Positions 1-10,919 of a DNA stretch of 64,000 nucleotides are shown piece after piece; position 1 is the first letter of the stretch, and every line of letters starts with the position of its first letter. Below the pieces are notes generated by a model. That model made no database searches. It was not told where the DNA came from and worked only from the letters and a program-made list of their open reading frames with translations. The DNA lies in contig CAZVDP010000007.1 in NCBI GenBank assembly GCA_964625945.1, positions 6,135 to 70,134 on the forward strand. The letters are read 5' to 3'. The DNA is from an uncultured Dehalococcoidia bacterium. Lineage in GTDB: Bacteria; Chloroflexota; Dehalococcoidia; Lucifugimonadales; UBA1127. Position numbers and translations under genes: made by a program.

Positions 1-984
1 ATGAGTCAGATTGACCACCCGATAGAGTTGTACCTGGGGTTCGCTGGAATCCGGACTTTAGGCCAAGGAACCCTCATGCTTGCCAGTACTACGATGGTCG
101 CCGTATGGTTCGTACGACTCCGCGGCCGAGCAATGGCTATAGCGACCTTAGGGTCGGCATTAAGCTTCGCCAGCTTCCCGCCGCTGGTTCATTTTTTTAT
201 TGAACAGTTTGAATGGCGCGGTGCGTGGATCGGTCTCAGCATATTAATTTGGTGCACGCTCCCACTGATGCTCCTTGCGAGAAGGAGCCCAGAATCGATG
301 GGCCTCCTCCCAGACGGGGCCATTGCAATAGACCGCACCGGAGACACCGGAAACGATACTCTACATGCAACTCCAGAGATTTCCTTCACTCTTACCGAAG
401 CAATGAAGACCCGTTCGTTCTGGCTTCTCCTGTTTGCTAGTATGCCTCACTCCTTGATCACCACAGCCATGGTATTCCATATGGGTTCACTCATGACCTC
501 AAGAGGATTAGCGACGAGCCTTGCACCTCAGGTTTTAAGCGTCATGGCCGTTATATCATTGCTGGGCACACTCATAGCAGGTTATTTATCCGACAAGATT
601 CCTAATCGTTACCTTATCGCAGCTGGGCATATCCTGCTCGCTGTGGGTATGGTCTGGACATTCATCACCGGCCATACATGGCAAGGCTTAGCCTTGGGAG
701 CGATCATCGGGATATCGAGTGGCTTAACCCATACTGCGAACAATGTAATCTGGCCAAACTATTTCGGGAGACGCCATTTGGGTGCGATCAGAGGAGTCGC
801 GACTACCGGTATGGTAGCATTCGCCGCTGTCGGTCCATTTCCGTTTGGGGTTCTCTTCGATATGACAGGGACATACACCGTTCCACTCGTCATTTTCTTG
901 TTTCTCCCTTTGGCTTGCGCTACAGCAATCCTGCAAGCTTATCCTCCCAAGAAGAACGGATCTGAAGACATTGACAGTCAGTAA
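1..984 (+). CDS. MFS-type transporter (5' end cut by the window edge)
   Basis: The frame is open from base 1 to TAA at 982-984. The protein is multi-pass and hydrophobic, with MFS-like organisation. Confidence 0.7.
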   Translation: MSQIDHPIELYLGFAGIRTLGQGTLMLASTTMVAVWFVRLRGRAMAIATLGSALSFASFPPLVHFFIEQFEWRGAWIGLSILIWCTLPLMLLARRSPESMGLLPDGAIAIDRTGDTGNDTLHATPEISFTLTEAMKTRSFWLLLFASMPHSLITTAMVFHMGSLMTSRGLATSLAPQVLSVMAVISLLGTLIAGYLSDKIPNRYLIAAGHILLAVGMVWTFITGHTWQGLALGAIIGISSGLTHTANNVIWPNYFGRRHLGAIRGVATTGMVAFAAVGPFPFGVLFDMTGTYTVPLVIFLFLPLACATAILQAYPPKKNGSEDIDSQ

Positions 985-1040
985 AGAGGAGTCTAAAGTC
1001 AGACTACTCGATTCAATCTCGCATCCAAAAAGGAGACGTT

Positions 1041-1793
1041 ATGGGAAGCCTTGATGCACCAAAGAAACATGTTAGTGATGAACTCATTGAAACCGCGAAA
1101 AAGGCAAGTAGCGCAACCATCTCATATGAACTACAGAAGAGAGGCTTCCGTTTCGTCTATATGGCCGGAGTGCTCCCGGTCAAGGCAGGTACAATCGTGG
1201 CTGGCAGAGCCTACACACTCCGCTACCTGCCTAAGCGCGAAGATCATCCACAGTACCCGTTTACGAGAGAAGTCTCGGAGAAATATGCTGAGCATGTCGC
1301 TATTGAAGCTGTCGGCAAAGGTGATGTCTTGGTAATCGATGCGAGAGGAAATGTCGGAGCTGGCGTATTCGGTGATCGCCTGGTTGCGCGAATGGAATAC
1401 CGTGGCGCAGCTGGACTAGTTACGGACGGAGCGATCCGAGACGTGCCGTACCTGAAGGGGCAGGACTTCCCTGTGTTTATCCGCGCCCCACATGGCTATG
1501 GACACAACGCCGAACACTTCGCCATGGATGTACAACTCCCGATCTCCTGCGGAAACGTATTGGTATATCCAGGGGATCTTTTGGTAGGCGATGACGATGG
1601 AGTTGTCGTTTGCCCTCAAGCAATCGCGGAAGAAGTCATTCGAGACGCAGTTGCTCAAGAAGAAGAAGAAACATTCACTAGAGAACTAATCCAAGAAGGG
1701 GCCCATATTGTCAGTGTGCACGGCACTTTGACAGGTGACACTTTAGAGCGTTACAAGAAGTGGCGTGCAGCCCACGGCCTTCCCCCAATTTAG
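1041..1793 (+). CDS. RraA-family protein (long form; HMG/CHA aldolase / oxaloacetate decarboxylase-like)
   Basis: It has the RraA-family core 'GDVLVID...GLVTDGAIRDV...GDLLVGDDDGVVV'. AGGAGA precedes the ATG. It is a paralog of 31733..32443. Confidence 0.75.
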   Translation: MGSLDAPKKHVSDELIETAKKASSATISYELQKRGFRFVYMAGVLPVKAGTIVAGRAYTLRYLPKREDHPQYPFTREVSEKYAEHVAIEAVGKGDVLVIDARGNVGAGVFGDRLVARMEYRGAAGLVTDGAIRDVPYLKGQDFPVFIRAPHGYGHNAEHFAMDVQLPISCGNVLVYPGDLLVGDDDGVVVCPQAIAEEVIRDAVAQEEEETFTRELIQEGAHIVSVHGTLTGDTLERYKKWRAAHGLPPI

Positions 1794-1831
1794 GCCGATT
1801 TACCCTCACAAGGAGAGATGGCGTGGGCGAG

Positions 1832-2803
1832 ATGCGGATTGATGTGTTCTTCACATCAGACGACAGGAAAAAGTCGCTGATGCGGGATGTTGAGCATGGA
1901 CTTACTTCGCGACCAAAAACCTTACTCCCTAAGTATTTTTACGATGCGGTTGGGTCCGAGCTATTTGAACAGATCACAGAGCTTCCAGAATATTACTTAA
2001 CACGAACTGAATCTCAGCTTCTGTCATCCGTAGCCCGTACTACTATTTCTCGTGTATGTCCCGAAGAGGTGATAGAACTTGGATCAGGCTCATCGACAAA
2101 GGCTAAGGTCGTCCTAGAACCCGCCTACGCGACGGGGCGATTGTCCTCCTATGTTCCGTTCGATGTAAGTGAATCAGCGTTAACAATGGCAGCTGAGGAA
2201 TTGACTCAAGAATATCCTTCACTAAATGTACACGGGATCGTTGGTGACTTCGAGACAGATCTCGATAAAATCCCGCAACCCAACGGGCGGCGACTTCTGC
2301 TTCTGCTAGGAAGTACAATTGGAAATTTGAACGCGGATTCCCGACACAAATTCCTAGTAGCCATGCGGGCGATCCTAGGACCTGAGGATGCGCTCCTCCT
2401 CGGTGTAGATTTAGTAAAGAGCGTCGATATGCTGCACGCCGCCTATAATGACAAATTGGGCATTACAGCCGCGTTCAATCGGAATATTCTCGCCGTATTA
2501 AACAGAGAACTTGGTGCGAACTTCAATCCTGATGAGTTCCAACACTACGCGTTCTACAACCCTTCTTCCGCTCGAGTCGAAATGCACTTGATCCCTTATG
2601 TAAAGCAAATAGTCGCAATTGAATCGTTATGCCTTTCAATAGAAATCCAACCCAATGAAAGTATCTGGACAGAAAGTTCATACAAGTTCACCCGCGAATC
2701 AACAGTAACCATGTTGGAGACGGCGGGATTCTCACTAAAAGATTGGTCAACGGATTCTGATGAACAAGTTGGCCTAGTCCTGGCAACCCTTCAGCAACGT
2801 TAA
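1832..2803 (+). CDS. egtD: L-histidine N-alpha-methyltransferase (hercynine synthase, EgtD type)
   Basis: It is collinear with EgtD hallmark stretches: 'LPKYFYDAVGSELFEQITELPEYYLTRTE', 'ELGSGSSTK', 'LGSTIGN', 'TAAFNRNILAVLNREL'. The track ORF starts at 1760, overlapping the upstream gene. The likely start is ATG 1832, or GTG 1823 with AGGAGA at 1811-1816. Confidence 0.9.
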   Translation: MRIDVFFTSDDRKKSLMRDVEHGLTSRPKTLLPKYFYDAVGSELFEQITELPEYYLTRTESQLLSSVARTTISRVCPEEVIELGSGSSTKAKVVLEPAYATGRLSSYVPFDVSESALTMAAEELTQEYPSLNVHGIVGDFETDLDKIPQPNGRRLLLLLGSTIGNLNADSRHKFLVAMRAILGPEDALLLGVDLVKSVDMLHAAYNDKLGITAAFNRNILAVLNRELGANFNPDEFQHYAFYNPSSARVEMHLIPYVKQIVAIESLCLSIEIQPNESIWTESSYKFTRESTVTMLETAGFSLKDWSTDSDEQVGLVLATLQQR

Positions 2804-2824: not shown

Positions 2825-3775
2825 TCATACGATCTCTTTGAGAAGATGTTCCCATGCTGTCATTTCGCGTTGAGGACTGAACCATGGGGCGAGATCGCGA
2901 CAGTGCTCACGCAATAGCTGTAACAAAGACCGATCGTTTTCTAGTTTCAAAAGTAATGTAGCTAAACCCTTCGTGTCACCAACCTGAAAATATGCCGGAT
3001 AGTCTGACCCTAACAATCCAACAGATCCAGGAATTTCAGAGGCGACTATTGGCACGTGATCGACGATGGCTTCAGAGATTACATTCGCTCCGCCTTCGAG
3101 TCGAGAAGATAGGACCAACACTTGGCTCCTAGCCATGATTTGTCGTGCCTGATCACGTGAACAATCGCCAAGCCACAAGAACCGAGGGTTCTTCTTCATC
3201 TCTGACGTCGCTCTCCGCGCCATTGAATCTGACATAGCACTACCTACTTGCAGAATTCGGATTCGCGATGATTTTGGCAGGAGCCGCGATGCTAAAGCCG
3301 TCCGGAAAGGATCCTTTACGGGTCTCAAATGTGCGACAACACAAACATCAAAATGCGTATCTTCGCTGCTCGTTGAATACGGCGTCGGATCTACAGATTG
3401 ATGTATCACACGCACTTTCGCACGTAAGTCAGACGGGATCTCTAATGCTGCTAGGGCTTGGAGTGTGACTAGTCTACTCGCAATATTCAACGACCGTACT
3501 GCTGAAACGCTACTGGAGATATCTTTGTAAACATCTGTACCCGTTAGAGCAACCACAATGGGAGTTTGTGGATGCAAACGGGAAAATCGTTCGATTGCAT
3601 GAGCACTACGCCTTGCGTGAAGAGCAATCATCAGGTCTGCTTCCTCTTCGTCGTAGCGTTCTGAAACCATTACCTGATGGCCTAGAGATGCCAAGATCGA
3701 TTGCCATCGTAGTGCTGTCACACGATTCCCGTGACGACTGCCCTTAGGCGCGGGAGTAATGATTTGAATTTTCAT
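2825..3775 (-). CDS. senB: Glycosyltransferase of the TIGR04348 / SenB (selenosugar synthase) type
   Basis: The N-terminus 'ITPAPKGSRHGNRVTALRW...LGHQV' and the overall GT-B-like length match my recollection of the selenium-linked TIGR04348 family. It is the last gene of an operon with EgtB-like and SelD genes. Confidence 0.7.
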   Translation of the reverse strand: MKIQIITPAPKGSRHGNRVTALRWQSILASLGHQVMVSERYDEEEADLMIALHARRSAHAIERFSRLHPQTPIVVALTGTDVYKDISSSVSAVRSLNIASRLVTLQALAALEIPSDLRAKVRVIHQSVDPTPYSTSSEDTHFDVCVVAHLRPVKDPFRTALASRLLPKSSRIRILQVGSAMSDSMARRATSEMKKNPRFLWLGDCSRDQARQIMARSQVLVLSSRLEGGANVISEAIVDHVPIVASEIPGSVGLLGSDYPAYFQVGDTKGLATLLLKLENDRSLLQLLREHCRDLAPWFSPQREMTAWEHLLKEIV

Positions 3776-3809: not shown

Positions 3810-5117
3810 TTATACGGCACATGTTCGGAATCCAGAGAATATATCATTCCGATCTGGGGTGAAAAAATTACGCCAAGTATTACGAACCAGCCTTGATCTG
3901 GTAGCCCAACACCCTCCCCTCAAAACACGGCGGTCGCCGAACCATGGGGCGGAATATTCTTTATATGGATCAAGAACAAAGCCAGGGAACGGCCAGAACC
4001 GATCCTCTACCCATTCCCACACATTGCCCAGCATCTGTCGACAACCAAACGCGCTATCGCCCTGAGGGGAACCATTAACATCGATGACCCCGCGATTACG
4101 GCCGTCAAGATTGGCATGTTCTAGCCGAGGAGCGGTATTGCCCCATGGGTATAAACGTTTTCCGGCATTTCCCGAATGCACCTCGGAGCTCGCCGCCATC
4201 TCCCATTCCGCCTCGGTGGGTAAACGGCGATGGGCCCATGCGCAAAAGGCAGTCGCCTCATACCAATTTATATGCATTACAGGGTGATCAGGAATGATTG
4301 GGGTCAATTGATCGAAGTTCCAACAACTCCAAGTGCCATCGGCATTCCTATCCCAATATCTAGGGGAGTCGACTCCTGCTCGTTGACGCCACGCCCAACC
4401 CCCAATATCCCAAAAATCTCTGTTGTTATATCCCCCGTCATCCACGAATGCCTGAAATTCAGCATTGGTTGTAGCGGTCGCAGCAATACGGAACGGTTGA
4501 ACCTCAACAGGGTGAGCCCACTTTTCGTTGTCAAACACGAAGTCTACTTTCGGATCCGCTCCCAAATAGAAAACCCCACCTGGAATCTCCACGTCCTTGC
4601 CGATAAGAGACGGATGGACTTGCTCATTGGGGGTTATAGCAAACAGAGGAGGGGCGGGATAGCGCAAGGCTTGGCGCGTGTAAGCGAGTGCTTCGGAGTG
4701 CATATCCTCATGAAACGTCGTCATTCTATAGAAATAATTCTCTCGCTCACTTAAAGCCATAGAGGAGAGGCGCTCGACACAAGCCTCCAAAACACTATCA
4801 AGATACTGTTTCGTCTCACACCGGTCTGGCAAAGCTAGATCCCAGCGCCAATCGTGAAACACTTCGAATGAATCGTAGAGGGCATCAGCATCTCGAAGCA
4901 AAGATCGACGACCATCGAGGTTGCGAAGTATCCATTTTTCCTGAAACCACGCTACATGACCAATTTCCCACATTGGCGGGTTTACGTTGGCTCCTTTCGG
5001 AACCAGAACCTGTGAGTCATCAAGATCAGAAACCATAGACAATAGCCGACGACGTGAATCTGTGACCCAGTCGATTAACTCATCTCGAACATCTGAAGGG
5101 GATTGTCCCGCAGACAT
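3810..5117 (-). CDS. senA: EgtB-like C-chalcogen bond-forming enzyme (DinB_2 N-domain + FGE-sulfatase C-domain), probably selenoneine synthase SenA
   Basis: It has a DinB-like N-terminal region with His residues. The C-terminal FGE-sulfatase signature is 'NVWEWV...RVLRGGCW'. It sits between the SelD gene and the SenB-like gene. Confidence 0.78.
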   Translation of the reverse strand: MSAGQSPSDVRDELIDWVTDSRRRLLSMVSDLDDSQVLVPKGANVNPPMWEIGHVAWFQEKWILRNLDGRRSLLRDADALYDSFEVFHDWRWDLALPDRCETKQYLDSVLEACVERLSSMALSERENYFYRMTTFHEDMHSEALAYTRQALRYPAPPLFAITPNEQVHPSLIGKDVEIPGGVFYLGADPKVDFVFDNEKWAHPVEVQPFRIAATATTNAEFQAFVDDGGYNNRDFWDIGGWAWRQRAGVDSPRYWDRNADGTWSCWNFDQLTPIIPDHPVMHINWYEATAFCAWAHRRLPTEAEWEMAASSEVHSGNAGKRLYPWGNTAPRLEHANLDGRNRGVIDVNGSPQGDSAFGCRQMLGNVWEWVEDRFWPFPGFVLDPYKEYSAPWFGDRRVLRGGCWATRSRLVRNTWRNFFTPDRNDIFSGFRTCAV

Positions 5118-5150
5118 GATTCAATTTCTTCCCAAAAACAGCAATCGCAC

Positions 5151-6194
5151 CTAAGAAACCACTCTGATCCCTGAATCTTCGCGAGAGATCACCTCTCCTA
5201 TGACAGCCGATTCCACGCCTCTCGACGACAGATTTCGGATGAGCAAATCAACCCTATCAGAGGGCAACGCTATTAGCAGGCCACCCGACGTTTGTGCATC
5301 ACAGAGGAGCACTTTTGTCTCTATCGACACAGTCGGACCCCACGCAACCTCACCTTCGAGGGCTTGAAGATTTTTTTGGGTTCCCCCAGCGACATTACCT
5401 TGTTGGAGCAATTCCCGAGTTCCCATGAGTACTGGCACACTACTCGCATCAATTACGGCCGTCACCTGACTACCATCAACCATGCCCCGAAGATGCCCTA
5501 GAAGACCGAAGCCCGTGACATCCGTGCAAGAGTGAGCACCAACAGCAATCATCGCTTCACTGGCATCCCGATTAAGTGTGGCCATAGTGGAAATTGCCAG
5601 ATCAATGACCTCCTGAGAGGCGTTCTGGGCTTTCGCCGCAGTAGTAATGATTCCGGTCCCAATTGGTTTAGTCAAAACTAAAACATCTCCCGGCTCGGCA
5701 CCAACATTTGAAACCTGTTCACCAGGCTTTACCACGCCAGTCACCGACAAACCGTACTTAGGCTCTTGATCTTGGATTGAATGACCGCCTACGATCAGGA
5801 CGCCGGCCTCCGCAGCTTTGTCAAAGCCTCCCCGCATCACGAGCGCCAATACCGACTTATCGATATCGGGGGGCCAGCACAGGATGTTCATCGCTACGAT
5901 AGGTCGACCTCCCATCGCGTAGACATCACTGAGGGAGTTTGCAACAGCAATCGCACCGTACCAGTAACCGTCGTCAACTATCGGTGGGAAAAAGTCTAGT
6001 GTTTGGATAAGAGCAACATCTTCTTGAATACGGTACACTGCCGCGTCATCTCGTGTAGCAACTCCAACGAGAAGATTCGGGTCTGTTACCGGAGGCATCG
6101 CACTCAGGACCTGTCCCAGGTCCTCGGGACTAAGCTTAGCCGCTCAGCCTGCGCAATTAGACAATGTCGTCAGGCGGAATCCCTTATCTTCCAT
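5151..6194 (-). CDS. selD: Selenide, water dikinase (selenophosphate synthetase SelD/SenC), selenocysteine-containing via in-frame TGA at 6146-6144
   Basis: The track ORF (5151..6098) lacks the SelD N-terminus. The minus strand reads GGAGGA-N6-ATG(6194) MEDKGFRLTTLSNCAG-TGA-AAKLSPEDLGQVLSAMPPVTDPNLLVG..., collinear with E. coli SelD '[25 protein letters not shown]...VDPNLLVG'. The TGA sits at the Cys17 position and the Lys20 equivalent is conserved. Confidence 0.88.
6106..6124 (-). promoter_or_regulatory. Candidate bacterial SECIS stem-loop downstream of the selD UGA
   Basis: The minus-strand RNA is AGGACCUG-GGA-CAGGUCCU, a perfect 8-bp stem with a G-rich apical loop. The stem starts 19 nt after the UGA, so the loop lies about 28-30 nt downstream. 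Confidence 0.5.
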
Positions 6195-6413
6195 GTCATT
6201 CCTCCGAGAAGGATAAATACCTACCAATAACTTATACTCCCGATCATTATAGCATCACTACTACCTTCTTAAACTACAACTGAACGCTCATTGACCGTAC
6301 CTTAAACGGATTGATACACTCGCGATGTCTTGCAACTCCCCCGAACCCTACAAAACCTAGTGAACACTACGAATGACATCGGCGAATCTTTTAAGTTCAG
6401 GACAGAATCAAAG

Positions 6414-7598
6414 ATGAGTCTAGTTTTATTCGGTGGAAATCTTTATACACCCGACTTCATAGAAGACGGCGCGGTCCTGATTCACGGCCACAAGATCTTG
6501 GCCGCCGGTGACCGTTCCCAGGTACTCTCAAATGATGAAGCTAAGAACGCTGAACTGATAGATATCCAAGGGAAGATTATAAGTCCCGGGCTTATTGACA
6601 TTCAGATCAATGGTGCAGGAGGAGCAGACTTTACAGGGAATCCCTTCCCTTCAAGTCTTCAAACCATTACAAGGCTACTCCCAGAATTTGGTTGTACGAG
6701 CTTCTTGCCAACCTTACTTTCCGCAAGCAATGAAACCATCTTGACGGCGTTACAAGCAACGAGATGGCTACGCGATAATCCCGAGAGTGGGGCACAGACC
6801 CTCGGACTCCATGTTGAAGGCCCATTTTTGAATCTCGAGCGGGCCGGGGCTCACAACACTAACCTAATCAGGGAGCCGTCGATGATTGATCTCAACCGCT
6901 GGCTGCAGGAAGCAGCCGGAGATCTCCGGCTGCTGACGTTGGCTCCCGAAATCCCAGGGGCTTCGACACTGATTCGCGAAGCCTCGCAAAGGGGGGTGCG
7001 AATCAGTTTAGGCCACACCGCAGCAACTTACCAAGAAGTAATGTCAGCATGGGATCAAGGAGCCTCCATAGTCACACACCTATTCAATGGGATGAAAGCA
7101 ATCTCTGCTAGAGAACCCGGGATCATCGGAGCAATATTCGATCATGATCAGTTCATTGCCACGATCATCGCAGATGGCATACATGTACACCCGGCGCTCC
7201 TTAGAGCTACGATCGGGATTATGGGGAGTGAAAGGGTAGTCCTGGTAACTGACGCCCTGTCGCCCGTGGGCACGAACATCGAACGTTTCCATCTCGGAAC
7301 AAGAGTCGTAGAAGTTCGAGGTGGAGCGTGCTACCTTGAAGACGGCACGCTCGCCGGAAGCATCCTTTCGATGGACCAAGCCATTAGAAATGTTGTGCGC
7401 TGGGTGGATCTACCGTTAGCGGATGCTTTCCGATTGGGAACCATAAACCCAGCGCGCGCGATCGGAGTGGAATCTTCGAAAGGGTCCTTAACTGCAGGCA
7501 AAGATGCAGACGTCGTCATTTGGACCCAAAGTCTTGAAGTAGAATTGGTCTTTACCAGGGGACTTGCAACGTATCAACGTTCAGGATTGTCGCAATGA
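6414..7598 (+). CDS. nagA: N-acetylglucosamine-6-phosphate deacetylase
   Basis: NagA/amidohydrolase motifs are present: 'PGLIDIQINGAGG', 'HVEGPFL', 'GHT', 'THLFNGM', 'ADGIHVHP', 'VTDA'. The track ORF begins at TTG 6330, but homology begins at 'MSLVLFGG' (ATG 6414). Confidence 0.85.
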   Translation: MSLVLFGGNLYTPDFIEDGAVLIHGHKILAAGDRSQVLSNDEAKNAELIDIQGKIISPGLIDIQINGAGGADFTGNPFPSSLQTITRLLPEFGCTSFLPTLLSASNETILTALQATRWLRDNPESGAQTLGLHVEGPFLNLERAGAHNTNLIREPSMIDLNRWLQEAAGDLRLLTLAPEIPGASTLIREASQRGVRISLGHTAATYQEVMSAWDQGASIVTHLFNGMKAISAREPGIIGAIFDHDQFIATIIADGIHVHPALLRATIGIMGSERVVLVTDALSPVGTNIERFHLGTRVVEVRGGACYLEDGTLAGSILSMDQAIRNVVRWVDLPLADAFRLGTINPARAIGVESSKGSLTAGKDADVVIWTQSLEVELVFTRGLATYQRSGLSQ

Positions 7599-8599
7599 AA
7601 CTAGGCGTAAGTTACTTCGGGAACCGAATACCATCGCACTACAAGAACCATGATCTACCCGAGATCCAAGCCGCCGGCTGTTCCTATGTGGTTCATACTT
7701 TTAGTGAGAACGACCTTAAATTCTACACCGGGACAATAGAGAAACTAATTGCTCTGACTCACTCCGCAGGACTTGAATCCCACATAGATCCGTGGGGCGT
7801 TGGGGGAATCTTTGGAGGTGAAGCTTTCAGCGAATTCCTCATCCTGAACCCAGATGCATGGCAGGTTCAAGTTGATGGAACACCTGTCCCTCAAGTATGC
7901 CTCCGTTCACCACGATTCCAAGAATTCATGCAAAACTGGATCAATACATCAGTCGCTATCGGCGCGGACATGTTTTTCTGGGATGAACCACAACTGATCA
8001 CAGAATCGACAGGAAAATTGGGATCTAATTCTGGGCACACCTGCTGGTGCTCAACGTGTAGGATGCTCTATGCCGACAGATATGGCGAGCCCATGCCGTA
8101 TCAGGTAACGGCACAGGTCCATGAATTCCTTCGCGAAACGGTAACCTGGTTTATCACAGATTTATGTCAATTTGGTGCAGCCCAAGGCGTACCTAGTACG
8201 GTGTGTCTTTCTCCAGCAGTTTTTGCACATCTCGGCGCTGACGCCATAGACACTATCGCCCAAATCCCAAGCGTTTCCACGCTCGGGATTACCCCATTCT
8301 GGCATCTTTGGAATCAACCCCACCGGAGGTATGTTCGAGAGCACGCGGACGCATTAGTAACTCTGTGCCGTCACTGGAAGAAAGAGCCCCAGTTATGGTT
8401 ACAAGGGTTTCTTATAGATGCTGGAAGAGAAATCGAAATCGGGGAAGCCGCAGACGAATCCATTCAAGCTGGAATTCGCAACCTGGCTGCATGGGGGTTC
8501 CAAGGTTGCGGCCATATGTCTTCAATGGCCCCGAGCCGCCCGGATGAAGTCTGGCGAGTCATCACAAAGAAATTTCAAAGACTCGAGGGCACACATTAG
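7595..8599 (+). CDS. Uncharacterised TIM-barrel / glycoside-hydrolase-like protein
   Basis: Its start ATG overlaps the nagA stop (ATGA at 7595-7598). The 'FFWDEP' segment resembles the catalytic-acid strand of clan GH-A enzymes. No specific family was recognised. Confidence 0.6.
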   Translation: MKLGVSYFGNRIPSHYKNHDLPEIQAAGCSYVVHTFSENDLKFYTGTIEKLIALTHSAGLESHIDPWGVGGIFGGEAFSEFLILNPDAWQVQVDGTPVPQVCLRSPRFQEFMQNWINTSVAIGADMFFWDEPQLITESTGKLGSNSGHTCWCSTCRMLYADRYGEPMPYQVTAQVHEFLRETVTWFITDLCQFGAAQGVPSTVCLSPAVFAHLGADAIDTIAQIPSVSTLGITPFWHLWNQPHRRYVREHADALVTLCRHWKKEPQLWLQGFLIDAGREIEIGEAADESIQAGIRNLAAWGFQGCGHMSSMAPSRPDEVWRVITKKFQRLEGTH

Positions 8600-8615
8600 C
8601 TAGCCCCTAAGTCCA

Positions 8616-9425
8616 TTATCCCCCGTTACCCGCAGCTTGCATGGCTAGAGCTTTGGGCTCCACATCAGTTGTCACAACCCGTTTAACCAAATCGATATCC
8701 ATCTCTTTCGCGATCGATGGATATCCTGCTCGCTCAAGCATCGCGCCCAGATTCCCTGACTTGAACTGGGAAAGCGTCCATGACAACGGATCGGGGACCA
8801 CTGTCATATCCCAATCAACAACCACGTTTTGGTTACGTGGACCATAGTGGTAGTGAGCGCCTCGATCAAAGCAATCGAAGGCGAGGAGCTCAATTTCTTG
8901 ACCAGCAACGTCACTGAGTACGTGGATGGCCATTCCACGCCCGATACTCAGATCGCGAAACTCAAGTCCAAACCTAACATTCCCTGCCTCGAAGACGGGG
9001 TCTCCACGGTAATGGACCGTGTGGCTTTTATGGCTTACAGCCAGAGATCGCGCGTGACTCTCGACGTTCGCGATCTCCTTTTCAAGGGTATCAGTGACGA
9101 TTTTTTTGGCCACAGAAGCATAGCCTCTTTTAGCGAGCATTTGCGGCAACCTTTCCTGTAACTGCCGAATTGTCCACCCAATGGGATTACCAGCGGTCGT
9201 CTTATCTAGCATCCATTTCTCATCCCCTGGTCCAATCCCATAATGGTAATGCGGTGCCTGATCGAAACAGTCGAAGCGCAGCAGTTCTGTCTCTGTCCCT
9301 GTGTCAGCGGTGAGTACTCGGATGGTTACACCTTGATCACCCTTGATAACCCTATGCTCAATTCCGAAACTGACAACTCCAGCATCAATCCGCTTCTCAC
9401 CACATCCCATGACTTTCTCCTCCAC
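8616..9425 (-). CDS. Hypothetical protein made of two tandem homologous domains (FDCFD...HYHYG motif)
   Basis: The 269-aa ORF has an internal duplication: approximately aa 16-125 aligns with approximately aa 146-255. No family was recognised. Confidence 0.7.
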   Translation of the reverse strand: MEEKVMGCGEKRIDAGVVSFGIEHRVIKGDQGVTIRVLTADTGTETELLRFDCFDQAPHYHYGIGPGDEKWMLDKTTAGNPIGWTIRQLQERLPQMLAKRGYASVAKKIVTDTLEKEIANVESHARSLAVSHKSHTVHYRGDPVFEAGNVRFGLEFRDLSIGRGMAIHVLSDVAGQEIELLAFDCFDRGAHYHYGPRNQNVVVDWDMTVVPDPLSWTLSQFKSGNLGAMLERAGYPSIAKEMDIDLVKRVVTTDVEPKALAMQAAGNGG

Positions 9426-9474
9426 AATGATTTGTTGAAAATACTCCGCGACCTATAACTGTCTATCAAAGCAA

Positions 9475-9546
9475 TCGGGGCGGGCGGGATCGAACCGCCG
9501 ACCTCCTGGTCCCAAACCAGGCGCCCTACCGCTGGGCCACGCCCCG
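9475..9546 (-). tRNA. tRNA-Pro (anticodon UGG)
   Basis: The reverse complement folds as a cloverleaf: acceptor CGGGGCG/CGCCCCG, anticodon arm CCTGG-TTTGGGA-CCAGG, T arm GGCGG-TTCGATC-CCGCC. CCA is not encoded. Confidence 0.9.
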
Positions 9547-9618
9547 CCAATGGTAATCATACAACCAATTGTAGATACGCTTCCTCACATTCAAACCGAT
9601 ATGGTATCTTGATACAAG

Positions 9619-9690
9619 CGCCCCTGGGGTGACTCGAACACCCGCACCCGGCTCCGGAGGCCGGTGCTCTATCCACTGAGCTACAGGGGC
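9619..9690 (-). tRNA. tRNA-Arg (anticodon CCG)
   Basis: The reverse complement gives acceptor GCCCCTG/CAGGGGC, D arm GCTC-AGTGGATA-GAGC, anticodon arm CCGGC-CTCCGGA-GCCGG and T loop TTCGAGT. Confidence 0.9.
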
Positions 9691-9806
9691 CGATCGTAAC
9701 TATCACTATAGCAGGGGCTCAGGCAGAGGCACAAGACACTGAACACAAGCATACCCCAGCTAGTGGCTAGCTTCGCCCAGACCATGTTATCCTCTATGTC
9801 GAAAGG

Positions 9807-10919
9807 GTGAGTCCAATGACACAAAAACGGGTAGTCGTAGCAATGAGTGGAGGCGTAGATTCCTCCGTAGCAGCTCTAATGCTCGCCAGACAAGGTTATG
9901 AAGTCATCGGCGTTTCGCTTCGTCTCTTCACAGATGAACGACCGGATGCAGCCCCATTAAACCGAGGATGTTGTACAGCTGAAGACATTGAGGATGCCCG
10001 GCGAGTATGCCAACTTATTGGAGCTCGCCACTACGTCGTTAACGCCGAGCGGGAATTCCGAGAATTCGTTATCAATTACTTTCTACGTGAATATCAGCGG
10101 GGACGGACGCCACACCCGTGTATCGCATGTAATGACCGGATCAAGTTCGACTTCCTGCTCGAAAGAGCATTAGCGCTCGATGCAAGCTTAATTGCCACTG
10201 GCCACTACGCGCGAATCCGGCACGAGCAGAACGGCGAATTCTCCCTTCTCCGGGCAATCGACCACACCAAAGATCAGTCGTACGTGCTGTTTGGGCTCTC
10301 ACAAGAGCAGTTGGGCCGCCTTTCATTCCCCGTCGGTGACCTGACCAAATTAGAGATACGGCAATTAGCTTTAGAAGCTAACCTCCCGGTCGCCGGCAAG
10401 CCCGATAGCCAAGAAATCTGTTTCATTCCGATGGGCGACTATAGGGAATTCCTGAAAAAGGAGCAAACTCCTATTCCAGGCAAGATCGTAGATCTTTCGG
10501 GCCAGGTGCTAGGCAACCACCCAGGTATAGGTTTCTTTACTATCGGCCAAAGGCGTGGACTCGGCGTCACATCTGAGCAGCCACTTTACGTGATCGACTT
10601 AGAGCCGGGGACCCAACGCGTAGTCGTCGGGCCGGAAGAAGCACTGTACGCCTCCGGGCTTCAGGCGAGCATGGTCAATTGGGTTGATGGCCTCCAAGAA
10701 CACGATCCTATTGATGTTCTAGTAAAAACTCGTTACAAGTCGATTGACACTCCCGCCAAGCTAATCCCTGATGGCTCGTCTATAGAGATCCGTTTCCATA
10801 CACCGCAACGCGCTATCACACCAGGCCAAGCCGTGGTGTTTTATCAAGGAGACCGTTTACTAGGAGGCGGATTCATTGACCACCCAATCCGCGTAGAGAA
10901 CGTTCTCGCTCTATCGTAA
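9807..10919 (+). CDS. mnmA: tRNA-specific 2-thiouridylase
   Basis: It has the PP-loop 'VAMSGGVDSS', 'HPCIACN', 'TGHYAR' and 'DQSYVL'. The start could be GTG 9807 or ATG 9816. Confidence 0.9.
   Translation: MSPMTQKRVVVAMSGGVDSSVAALMLARQGYEVIGVSLRLFTDERPDAAPLNRGCCTAEDIEDARRVCQLIGARHYVVNAEREFREFVINYFLREYQRGRTPHPCIACNDRIKFDFLLERALALDASLIATGHYARIRHEQNGEFSLLRAIDHTKDQSYVLFGLSQEQLGRLSFPVGDLTKLEIRQLALEANLPVAGKPDSQEICFIPMGDYREFLKKEQTPIPGKIVDLSGQVLGNHPGIGFFTIGQRRGLGVTSEQPLYVIDLEPGTQRVVVGPEEALYASGLQASMVNWVDGLQEHDPIDVLVKTRYKSIDTPAKLIPDGSSIEIRFHTPQRAITPGQAVVFYQGDRLLGGGFIDHPIRVENVLALS

What the first reader, a model, noticed from the sequence alone, without database searches (positions are those of the whole stretch)
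6100..6194. The cluster's selenophosphate synthetase is itself a selenoprotein: in-frame TGA at the catalytic position, missed by the ORF track
The ORF track starts the SelD homolog at 6098 (MPPVTDPNLL...), which lacks the glycine-rich catalytic N-terminus. Upstream on the minus strand I read GGAGGA-N6-ATG(6194), then MEDKGFRLTTLSNCAG, then TGA (6146-6144), then AAKLSPEDLGQVLSA in the same frame. This aligns residue-for-residue with E. coli SelD 'SHGAG-C17-GCK20[10 protein letters not shown]'. The TGA falls on the Cys17/Sec position and the Lys20 equivalent is retained. A perfect 8-bp hairpin at 6106-6124 with a GGA apical loop begins 19 nt after the UGA, which is consistent with a bacterial SECIS. 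It follows that the organism must carry selA/selB/selC. It also follows that supply of selenophosphate to the sen pathway depends autocatalytically on selenium. I do not know whether a Sec-type SelD embedded in a sen cluster has been reported.
Basis: seen in the sequence. Interest (0 to 1): 0.75.

Follow-up and report, generated by a model that had tools for sequence, protein, structure and literature searches.

The report
Selenocysteine-containing SelD in selenoneine cluster
The selenophosphate synthetase gene of this bacterium's selenoneine gene cluster does carry an in-frame UGA at its catalytic residue, best read as selenocysteine; this is a well-known feature of SelD enzymes that gene callers routinely truncate, so the finding is correct but mostly an annotation fix.

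Summary
On the minus strand I read GGAGG, N6, ATG (6194), 16 sense codons, TGA (6146-6144), then the same frame through Met33 (6098) to the stop at 5151. An 8-bp perfect hairpin (6124-6106, loop GGA) starts 19 nt after the UGA.

The 347-aa read-through product is a full-length SelD (TIGR00476, 383 bits, from model position 1). Its N-terminus aligns without gaps to E. coli SelD, so the UGA falls on Cys17 and Lys20 is kept. SenA, SenB and EgtD lie alongside.

TGA sits at this exact codon in 69 of 80 related genomes, and TGY in the other 11. All six closest sen-linked relatives (62-93% identity) also have TGA.

The hairpin meets every constraint of the bacterial SECIS model. In its subclade it shows compensatory changes. 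The gene's highest synonymous-codon conservation lies just after the UGA. Cys-type homologs lack the hairpin.

TGA is an ordinary stop elsewhere in the window.

Not shown: selA, selB and tRNA-Sec are absent from the 64-kb window and from about 17 kb of extra flank.

Sec-type SelD is the second most widespread bacterial selenoprotein, so this is a new member of a known kind. Sec-type SelD linked to sen genes recurs in at least four lineages.

The parts
6201..6205 (-). Shine-Dalgarno GGAGG, 6 nt upstream of the true start codon
   Evidence: Read in sequence. An equivalent GGAGG or GAGGAG precedes the aligned ATG in L082, L083, L084, L086 and L087. No such motif precedes Met33.
5151..6194 (-). 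Full-length senC/selD coding sequence: 347 codons plus stop, with Sec at codon 17
   Evidence: Translation. TIGR00476 selD scores 383 bits (cutoff 125) from model position 1, and NF002098 scores 341 bits (cutoff 299). The product aligns to E. coli SelD 3U0O, residues 2-338 against 2-337.
6144..6146 (-). In-frame UGA, codon 17, read as selenocysteine (catalytic Cys17 position of E. coli SelD)
   Evidence: The homologous codon is TGA in 69 of 80 related genomes and TGY in 11. It is TGA in all sen-linked close relatives.
6135..6137 (-). AAG, Lys20 equivalent of the UxxK motif
   Evidence: The UxxK motif is listed for selenoprotein SelD in PMC13188914 Table 1.
6106..6124 (-). SECIS-type hairpin A: 8-bp stem, apical loop GGA, loop starting 27 nt after the UGA
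   Evidence: Fold (-11.6 kcal/mol). It meets all four bSECIS model constraints. In the 19-sequence subclade 94% of cells are paired, 3 pairs carry compensatory changes, and the covariation score is 0.160 against at most 0.077 when the partners are slid. Synonymous-site conservation peaks here.
6096..6098 (-). Met33 ATG: the spurious start chosen by the ORF track and by gene callers
   Evidence: The Met is not conserved in relatives (Leu in L082, L083, L086 and L087). There is no SD upstream. A protein starting here lacks the Sec/Cys17-Lys20 loop.
3810..5117 (-). senA (selenoneine synthase), 33 nt downstream of senC
   Evidence: NF041186 SenA scores 492.6 bits against a cutoff of 420.
2825..3775 (-). 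senB (selenosugar synthase), 34 nt downstream of senA
   Evidence: TIGR04348 SenB scores 386.9 bits against a cutoff of 300.
1760..2803 (+). egtD (histidine N-alpha-methyltransferase, makes hercynine), convergent with senB
   Evidence: TIGR03438 scores 344 bits against a cutoff of 291. The true start may lie downstream of the GTG at 1760; gene callers give 307 aa.

Best explanation
The gene at 6194-5151 (minus strand) is the selenophosphate synthetase (SelD, called SenC in this context) of a senC-senA-senB selenoneine operon, and it is itself a selenoprotein. Translation starts at ATG 6194. At codon 17 the UGA is decoded as selenocysteine by SelB with Sec-tRNA(Sec), recruited by the hairpin at 6124-6106 inside the coding sequence. 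This yields a 347-aa enzyme whose N-terminal loop carries the catalytic Sec17 and Lys20.

The enzyme makes selenophosphate from selenide and ATP. SenB uses the selenophosphate to make a selenosugar, and SenA couples that sugar to EgtD-made hercynine to give selenoneine.

Shown here: the gene structure, the homology, conservation of the UGA and its flanks, RNA-level constraint on the hairpin, and the cluster context. Inferred: actual Sec insertion, the presence of selA/selB/selC elsewhere in the genome, and enzyme activity.

The SelD is not a dedicated paralog. It groups with the ordinary Sec-type SelDs of Dehalococcoidia/SAR202 Chloroflexota, so it may also serve the cell's other selenium pathways.
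For: 1. Homology. The read-through product matches the SelD equivalog models above their cutoffs from model position 1. Its N-terminus aligns without gaps to E. coli SelD, so the UGA falls on Cys17 and K20 on Lys20.
2. Sec/Cys alternation. The aligned codon is TGA in 69 of 80 related genomes across many phyla and TGT/TGC in 11. The peptide is conserved on both sides: RLTxLxxCAG-U-AxK[LF]SxxDLxQVL.
3. Close relatives. Relatives at 93, 72, 66, 62 and 62% identity all keep SD-ATG-16 codons-TGA, and all sit in selD-senA-senB clusters.
4. Gene-caller truncation. 119 of the 120 best database homologs are 292-328 aa and start just after the Sec position, at non-conserved starts. The one full-length hit is a Cys form.
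5. SECIS geometry. The hairpin has a 3-nt loop GGA, an 8-bp stem, 27 nt between UGA and loop, and -11.6 kcal/mol. All constraints of the bSECIS model are met.
6. SECIS covariation. The subclade shows compensatory changes, for example L016 GGAUCUG/CAGAUCC and L003 GGACCUC/GAGGUCC.
7. Contrast with Cys forms. 52 of 73 TGA-type genes have at least 6 bp in this register or the neighbouring one, against 0 of 11 Cys-type genes (Fisher p = 7e-6).
8. Synonymous sites. Synonymous-codon identity is 0.64-0.69 in eight-codon windows starting at codons 17-24, which span codons 17-31, against 0.43 for the rest of the gene. The top 11 of 339 eight-codon windows all start at codons 13-25.
9. Genetic code. TGA terminates 10 of 29 long ORFs in the window, so the code is standard.
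10. Independent assemblies and samples carry the same TGA.
11. Literature. SelD is the second most widespread prokaryotic selenoprotein family, with motif UxxK (PMC13188914; PMC1794560).
Against: - No tRNA-Sec, selA or selB was found in the 64-kb window or in the extra 10 kb at one end and about 7 kb at the other, up to the contig end.
- No second selenoprotein gene was found in the window.
- Sec decoding in this organism is therefore inferred, not observed.
- Conservation of the hairpin is partly confounded by the conserved peptide EDLxQVL that it encodes.
- The structure tested was derived from the window sequence itself, which favours it in the sliding control.
- Across the whole family a different register (hairpin B) carries the stronger covariation, and that hairpin does not form in the window.
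Confidence: 0.9

Rival explanations
1. The TGA is a real stop. Either a 16-aa leader peptide is made and SelD starts at Met33 (315 aa), or the gene is a decaying pseudogene.
For: This is what the ORF track and all automated gene callers report. No Sec machinery was seen in the sequence available.
Against: A protein starting at Met33 lacks the Sec/Cys17 and Lys20 loop. That loop is required for SelD activity according to established E. coli SelD mutagenesis (from my own knowledge). Met33 is not conserved and has no SD. The 16 upstream codons, the SD and the ATG are conserved at protein level down to 62% identity. The same architecture occurs in 69 of 80 related genomes, which is incompatible with decay. 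The rest of the gene shows intact invariant residues: D50, D67, N86, D90 and D225.
Confidence: 0.03
2. The TGA is a sequencing or assembly error for TGC/TGT.
For: A single-base difference would suffice. Cys forms exist in the family (11 of 80).
Against: The TGA is identical in two different assemblies of the source sample. It is also present in 93%-identical relatives from two other samples and in more distant sen-linked relatives. The downstream SECIS hairpin and the synonymous-site constraint co-occur only with TGA forms.
Confidence: 0.01
3. The UGA is read through, but not as selenocysteine. Possibilities are Cys delivered on tRNA-Sec, near-cognate Trp/Cys read-through, or a local recoding signal unrelated to SelB.
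For: Nothing here measures which residue is inserted. The Sec machinery is unverified.
Against: The UGA aligns with a catalytic Cys, the classic Sec/Cys pair. The hairpin fits the SelB-type bSECIS model, including G-G at the start of the loop. In Firmicutes relatives with the same UGA, selD is directly followed by selA, selB and tRNA-Sec. TGA is a normal stop elsewhere in the window.
Confidence: 0.04
4. Sec is inserted, but the functional SECIS is not the reader's hairpin. It could instead be the family-wide register 6 nt downstream (hairpin B), or a structure including the UGA-containing stem at 6149-6127.
For: Across 69 TGA-type genes, hairpin B has the strongest covariation: 0.324 against at most 0.128 when slid, with 60 double-change cells. 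The whole-family signal for hairpin A is weak: 0.160 against 0.130. A stem including the UGA is predicted in the MFE fold.
Against: In the window, hairpin B forms only 3 contiguous pairs, read from alignment A2. In the 19-sequence subclade, B shows no covariation above controls, while A is 94% paired with compensatory changes. The UGA-containing stem shows no covariation.
Confidence: 0.1

Closest known systems
Selenocysteine-type bacterial SelD (for example Aquifex aeolicus SelD, PDB 2ZOD/2YYE solved as the Cys variant; Haemophilus influenzae and clostridial SelD)
   Same: It shares the UxxK motif in the N-terminal loop, a UGA a few codons after the start, a SECIS hairpin inside the coding sequence, and the AIRS/AIRS_C fold. 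A. aeolicus SelD matches at E = 4e-63. SelD is listed as an experimentally verified selenoprotein family with motif UxxK.
   Different: Here the gene is the first gene of a selenoneine (sen) operon rather than standing next to selA/selB or selU. The SECIS register is shifted 6 nt upstream relative to most family members.
E. coli SelD (Cys17/Lys20; PDB 3U0O)
   Same: The proteins are the same length (347 aa) and the N-terminal alignment has no gaps. Lys20 and the Asp ligands are conserved (E = 8e-73).
   Different: E. coli has Cys at position 17 and no UGA or SECIS.
SenC of the Variovorax paradoxus / Amycolatopsis sen cluster (Kayrouz & Seyedsayamdost; bioRxiv 10.1101/2022.04.13.486033)
   Same: It plays the same role: a SelD homolog clustered with SenA and SenB that supplies selenophosphate for selenosugar and selenoneine synthesis. 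egtD is co-localized, as in a subset of their clusters.
   Different: The published work does not mention Sec-type SenC. The V. paradoxus enzyme is expressed as an ordinary protein in E. coli, which implies a Cys form; that is my inference. The window's SelD groups with ordinary Chloroflexota SelDs, not with a SenC-specific clade.
E. coli fdhF-type bacterial SECIS and the bSECISearch consensus
   Same: It is a stem-loop immediately downstream of the UGA within the ORF, with G followed by G or U at the start of a small apical loop, 16-37 nt from the UGA, and MFE at or below -7.5 kcal/mol. All these are met.
   Different: There is no sequence similarity to the fdhF element. No bulged U is evident. 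SelB binding is untested.

Membership tests
SelD (selenide, water dikinase; TIGR00476 / NF002098) | Whole-protein score above the curated equivalog cutoff, covering the model from its N-terminus | tested here: met
   TIGR00476 scores 383.3 bits (cutoff 125) over model positions 1-309. NF002098 scores 341.5 bits (cutoff 299).
SelD (selenide, water dikinase; TIGR00476 / NF002098) | N-terminal catalytic loop with Cys or Sec at the E. coli position 17 and Lys at position 20 ([C/U]xxK) | tested here: met
   The ungapped alignment to 3U0O puts the UGA on Cys17 and K20 on Lys20. The motif here is U-A-A-K.
SelD (selenide, water dikinase; TIGR00476 / NF002098) | AIRS N- and C-terminal domains with conserved Asp/Asn metal and ATP ligands | tested here: met
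   PF00586 and PF02769 both hit. D50, D67, N86, D90 and D225 are invariant among homologs and align with E. coli DDAAVY, TTDFF, SDIFAMGG and TDVTGFG.
SelD (selenide, water dikinase; TIGR00476 / NF002098) | ATP-dependent selenophosphate synthesis | not testable with these tools
   This needs an enzyme assay.
Bacterial selenoprotein | In-frame UGA aligned to Cys in homologs (Sec/Cys pair), with coding conservation on both sides | tested here: met
   69 loci have TGA and 11 have TGY at the same codon. The flanking peptide is conserved on both sides.
Bacterial selenoprotein | bSECIS element: loop of 3-9 nt, stem of 4-16 bp, G in the first two loop positions, 16-37 nt from the UGA, MFE at or below -7.5 kcal/mol | tested here: met
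   The criteria come from PMC13188914. The hairpin has loop GGA, an 8-bp stem, 27 nt spacing and -11.6 kcal/mol.
Bacterial selenoprotein | Sec-decoding machinery (selA, selB, tRNA-Sec) in the same genome | not testable with these tools
   None is present in the window or in about 17 kb of added flank. In Firmicutes relatives these genes are adjacent to selD.
Bacterial selenoprotein | Selenium actually incorporated at the UGA | not testable with these tools
   This needs 75Se labelling or mass spectrometry.
sen (selenoneine) biosynthetic gene cluster | SenA (EgtB-like selenoneine synthase) above the NF041186 cutoff | tested here: met
   492.6 bits against a cutoff of 420. EgtB TIGR03440 scores 326.7, below its cutoff of 360.
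sen (selenoneine) biosynthetic gene cluster | SenB (TIGR04348 selenosugar synthase) above its cutoff | tested here: met
   386.9 bits against a cutoff of 300.
sen (selenoneine) biosynthetic gene cluster | selD homolog co-localized and co-oriented with senA and senB | tested here: met
   senC 6194-5151, senA 5117-3810 and senB 3775-2825 are all on the minus strand with gaps of 33 and 34 nt. The arrangement is conserved in L082-L087.
sen (selenoneine) biosynthetic gene cluster | Production of selenoneine | not testable with these tools
   This needs metabolite analysis.

The most novel reading that the evidence does not exclude
In this Chloroflexota lineage senC is the first gene of the operon. 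The UGA at codon 17 could therefore act as a built-in selenium gate for the whole selenoneine pathway. When Sec-tRNA(Sec) is scarce, ribosomes would terminate at codon 17. The resulting untranslated senC mRNA would reduce senA and senB expression by polarity, so the cell would commit selenium to a small molecule only when selenium is plentiful. A corollary is that the costly Sec-decoding trait may be maintained here largely for SelD, which in turn serves small-molecule selenium metabolism. This would parallel the SelD-only selenoproteomes proposed to sustain selenouridine synthesis (PMC1794560). Nothing excludes this reading. However, the gene order is not universal: in L054 and L161 the Sec-type selD follows senA or senB. 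Any such gating would therefore be lineage-specific.
Probability: 0.1. Interest if true: 0.55.

Novelty: new member of a known kind. Interest (0 to 1): 0.3.

Why it matters
There are three consequences, mostly practical.

1. Annotation. The catalytic N-terminus of this SelD and of nearly all its closest database relatives is missing from predicted proteomes: 119 of the 120 best hits are truncated. Surveys of selenium metabolism and of sen clusters that rely on called proteins will misjudge these enzymes.

2. Heterologous expression. Anyone expressing sen clusters from SAR202-like or other Sec-type lineages must replace the UGA with a Cys codon or provide a compatible SelB/SECIS pair. Otherwise they will obtain an inactive, truncated SenC.

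3. Biology. Selenoneine synthesis in these abundant marine bacteria is tied to the selenocysteine-decoding trait. 'SenC' appears to be the lineage's own SelD rather than a dedicated paralog.

None of this overturns current understanding. Sec-type SelD and its self-dependence on selenium have been known for decades.

Tried and rejected
- Rfam, at both gathering and permissive thresholds, has no family matching the hairpin. Bacterial SECIS elements are not modelled there.
- tRNA-Sec, selA and selB were sought in several ways: ARAGORN and Rfam on the window; NCBIfam on the 30 largest ORFs; tblastn with verified clostridial SelA and SelB against the window and the loci fetched up to that call, then against the later flank loci; and look-ups of the contig flanks. 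They were found only next to selD in Firmicutes loci.
- A scan for a second selenoprotein gene in the window found none. It looked for in-frame TGA with open frames on both sides and for TGA followed by a SECIS-geometry hairpin.
- The UGA-containing lower stem (6149-6127) is 75% paired across relatives but shows no covariation above shuffles. I do not claim it as part of the element.
- A small hairpin C (GUCC-CGA-GGAC, 6130-6120) shows only weak signal.
- The promoter and terminator scan of the operon gave counts no higher than in shuffled sequence.
- Literature searches for any report of a Sec-type SenC, or of selenoneine in SAR202, found nothing. The 2022 SelD family review (PubMed 36122644) is not held.
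- The conserved 334-aa neighbour has no Pfam, NCBIfam or PDB sequence match.
- The genome contigs and metagenome-contig scans were each spent on one query, so the source genome itself could not be searched.

Full report
**1. The observation**

I read the minus strand of 4900-6400 and translated 6194-5151.
- GGAGG lies at 6205-6201 and ATG at 6194-6192.
- Sixteen sense codons follow (MEDKGFRLTTLSNCAG), then TGA at 6146-6144.
- The same frame continues as AAKLSPEDLGQVLSA, then Met33 at 6098, which is the ORF-track start. It stays open to the stop at 5151, giving 347 residues.
- The only slip is the spacer. It is GGAGG-N6-ATG or GGAGGA-N5-ATG.

The hairpin AGGACCUG-GGA-CAGGUCCU occupies 6124-6106 and starts 19 nt after the UGA.

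It is unlikely to be chance. Of 2227 TGA trinucleotides on both strands of the window, six are followed by a perfect hairpin of at least 8 bp with SECIS geometry. The TGA at 6146 is the only one of these with an open reading frame on both sides.

It is also not an assembly artefact.
- The ENA scaffold that most likely is the source (ERZ23495044 scaffold_45, 184,950 bp) carries the identical sequence, and so does an independent Logan assembly of SRR5002404.
- Relatives at 93% identity from two other samples have the same TGA.

**2. What the gene is**

With U replaced by C, the read-through product matches the curated SelD equivalog models from model position 1. TIGR00476 scores 383 bits against a cutoff of 125, and NF002098 scores 341 against 299. 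The product contains both AIRS domains.

Against the PDB its best match is E. coli SelD (3U0O, E = 8e-73). The N-terminal alignment has no gaps, residues 2-338 against 2-337. Codon 17 therefore falls on Cys17 and Lys20 on Lys20. The second match is Aquifex aeolicus SelD, a naturally selenocysteine-containing enzyme. The motif U-A-A-K fits the UxxK signature listed for selenoprotein SelD (PMC13188914).

Immediately downstream on the same strand lie:
- SenA at 5117-3810 (NF041186, 493 bits against a cutoff of 420);
- SenB at 3775-2825 (TIGR04348, 387 bits against a cutoff of 300).

EgtD is convergent at 1760-2803. The 'sen cluster' context is therefore genuine.

**3. Comparative evidence for selenocysteine**

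The 120 best protein-database homologs are almost all 292-328 aa. They begin at assorted, non-conserved positions just after the Sec site. The only full-length one is a Cys form, CAGCAGK. Gene callers evidently miss this UGA systematically.

I fetched DNA for 80 related SelD genes, one genome per species. The codon aligned to window codon 17 is TGA in 69 and TGT/TGC in 11. The peptide is conserved on both sides. This is the classical Sec/Cys signature.

The window's nearest relatives, at 93, 72, 66, 62 and 62% identity, all sit in selD-senA-senB(-egtD) clusters. All keep SD, ATG, 16 codons and TGA. Met33 is replaced by Leu in L082, L083, L086 and L087, and no SD precedes it in the window.

TGA terminates 10 of 29 long ORFs in the window, including uvrC, glyS, dnaN and senB. 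A reassigned genetic code is therefore excluded.

**4. The RNA element**

The current bacterial SECIS model requires four things (PMC13188914):
- a loop of 3-9 nt on a stem of 4-16 bp;
- G in the first two loop positions, usually followed by G or U;
- 16-37 nt between the UGA and the loop;
- MFE at or below -7.5 kcal/mol.

The window hairpin has loop GGA, 8 bp, 27 nt and -11.6 kcal/mol.

Three independent lines indicate selection at the RNA level.

(a) Synonymous-codon identity among 18 relatives is 0.64-0.69 in eight-codon windows starting at codons 17-24, which together span codons 17-31. It is 0.43 for the rest of the gene. The top 11 of 339 eight-codon windows all start at codons 13-25.

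(b) In a 19-sequence alignment of the window's subclade the hairpin is 94% paired, and three pairs carry compensatory double changes. Examples are L016 and L002 with C-G changed to U-A, and L003 with G-C changed to C-G. The covariation score is 0.160 against at most 0.077 when the 3' partners are slid.

(c) 52 of 73 TGA-type genes have at least 6 contiguous pairs in this register or the adjacent one, against 0 of 11 Cys-type genes (Fisher p = 7e-6).

One refinement emerged. Across the whole family the strongest covariation belongs to a hairpin 6 nt further downstream. Its loop is the GUN of the Val codon in DLxQVL. Its covariation score is 0.324 against at most 0.128 when slid, with 60 double-change cells. 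That hairpin does not form in the window, and it shows no signal in the subclade. The SECIS has apparently shifted register between lineages while the encoded peptide stayed similar.

A stem that includes the UGA itself (6149-6127) shows no covariation.

**5. What could not be shown**

No tRNA-Sec, selA or selB is present in the 64-kb window, nor in the extra 10 kb at one end and about 7 kb at the other, up to the contig end. No second selenoprotein gene was found in the window. In Firmicutes relatives carrying the same UGA, selD is directly followed by selA, selB and tRNA-Sec. In the Chloroflexota loci it is not. Sec decoding in this organism therefore rests on strong evolutionary inference, not on direct observation.

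**6. How general the arrangement is**

An 80-locus survey seeded with SenB showed that most senA-senB pairs have no selD in the available flank. Four loci did have one:
- two are Sec-type (L129 and L161);
- one is Cys-type (L157);
- one has its N-terminus off the contig.

Among the 80 SelD loci, L054 has a bona fide SenA (510 bits) directly upstream of a Sec-type selD.

In a rough neighbour-joining tree the window clade is nested among ordinary Sec-type SelDs of Dehalococcoidia and SAR202. L054, L129 and L161 fall elsewhere, L054 and L161 beside SelDs from other phyla. 'SenC' therefore looks like the lineage's own SelD placed next to senAB, not a dedicated paralog. It is Sec-type wherever the lineage's SelD is Sec-type.

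The source organism is most likely a marine SAR202-like Chloroflexota. This is an inference from the best hits and from a GC content of about 50%.

**7. Comparison with what is known, and novelty**

SelD is the second most widespread prokaryotic selenoprotein family (PMC13188914; PMC1794560). A Sec-type SelD needs its own product to be made. The idea that the Sec trait may be kept for SelD, which then serves another selenium pathway, was already discussed for selenouridine.

The sen pathway is also known. I found no open-access text that mentions a Sec-type SenC. The 2022 SelD family review could not be read.

The finding is therefore a correct identification of a new member of a known kind. 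Its value is mainly for annotation and for heterologous expression.

The most novel reading still open is that UGA17 gates the whole senC-senA-senB operon by selenium availability. The variable gene order in other Sec-type sen loci argues against this being general.

**8. Verdict**

Interest is 0.3.

Noticed in passing
window 6099-6124 (-); alignments A2 and A4: The SECIS register differs between lineages. Family-wide, the covarying hairpin has its loop on the GUN Val codon of DLxQVL, equivalent to window 6119-6099. The window's subclade uses a hairpin 6 nt upstream (6124-6106), and the downstream one does not form.
   Followed up: yes
protein hits P0001-P0120: 119 of the 120 best homologs in the 5.8-billion-protein collection are N-terminally truncated just after the Sec codon, with non-conserved starts. 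Sec-type SelD is systematically mis-called in metagenome proteomes.
   Followed up: yes
L089-L168 (SenB-seeded metagenome loci): 76 of 80 SenB loci show no selD in the fetched flank, including roughly 20 with several kb of flank on both sides of senA-senB. Many senA-senB pairs appear unlinked to selD.
   Followed up: partly
L054, L129, L161 and L157 compared with the window clade: Sec-type selD linked to sen genes occurs in at least four separate places of a SelD neighbour-joining tree, with different gene orders (selD-senA-senB, senA-selD, senA-senB-selD). L157 is a divergent Cys-type. 'SenC' looks like each lineage's own SelD rather than a dedicated paralog.
   Followed up: partly
L129:3678-5951: Here SenB (414 bits) sits next to an enzyme that scores as EgtB (TIGR03440, 492 bits) rather than SenA (354 bits, below its cutoff). 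A Sec-type selD lies 1.5 kb upstream. This may be a variant pairing.
   Followed up: no
window 6330-10919: A block of genes next to the sen cluster recurs in whole or in part in L082, L084, L087 and L171. It comprises a NagA-like amidohydrolase (6330-7598), a 334-aa protein with no Pfam, NCBIfam or PDB match (7595-8599), DUF7700 (8616-9425), tRNA-Pro and tRNA-Arg, and MnmA (9807-10919). L087 adds a ROK kinase. This could be salvage of the GlcNAc moiety used by SenB, but that is speculation.
   Followed up: partly
window 1-1793; L171:194-7727: A second block lies on the egtD side, also seen in L082 and L084 (isochorismatases only partly): an RraA-like/aldolase, an MFS transporter, an SDR, and an HpcH/HpaI aldolase. 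In L171 these are followed by six tandem isochorismatase-family genes at the contig end. The MFS could be a transporter for a selenium compound or for hercynine/selenoneine.
   Followed up: no
window 6127-6149 (-): An 8-bp stem that includes the UGA itself (GGCUGAGC...GCUUAGUC) is predicted in the MFE fold. It is 75% paired across relatives but shows no covariation above shuffles.
   Followed up: yes
window 6246-6254 (-): TGCTATAAT, an extended -10-like motif, lies about 50 nt upstream of the senC start. The promoter scan did not call it because there is no -35 match. It was seen in sequence only.
   Followed up: no
L061, L062, L046, L075, L081, L043, L065, L070 and L077: In Firmicutes relatives the Sec-type selD lies beside selA and selB. 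L061, L065, L070, L075 and L081 also carry tRNA-Sec nearby, which makes a compact Sec operon. No Chloroflexota locus has this arrangement.
   Followed up: yes
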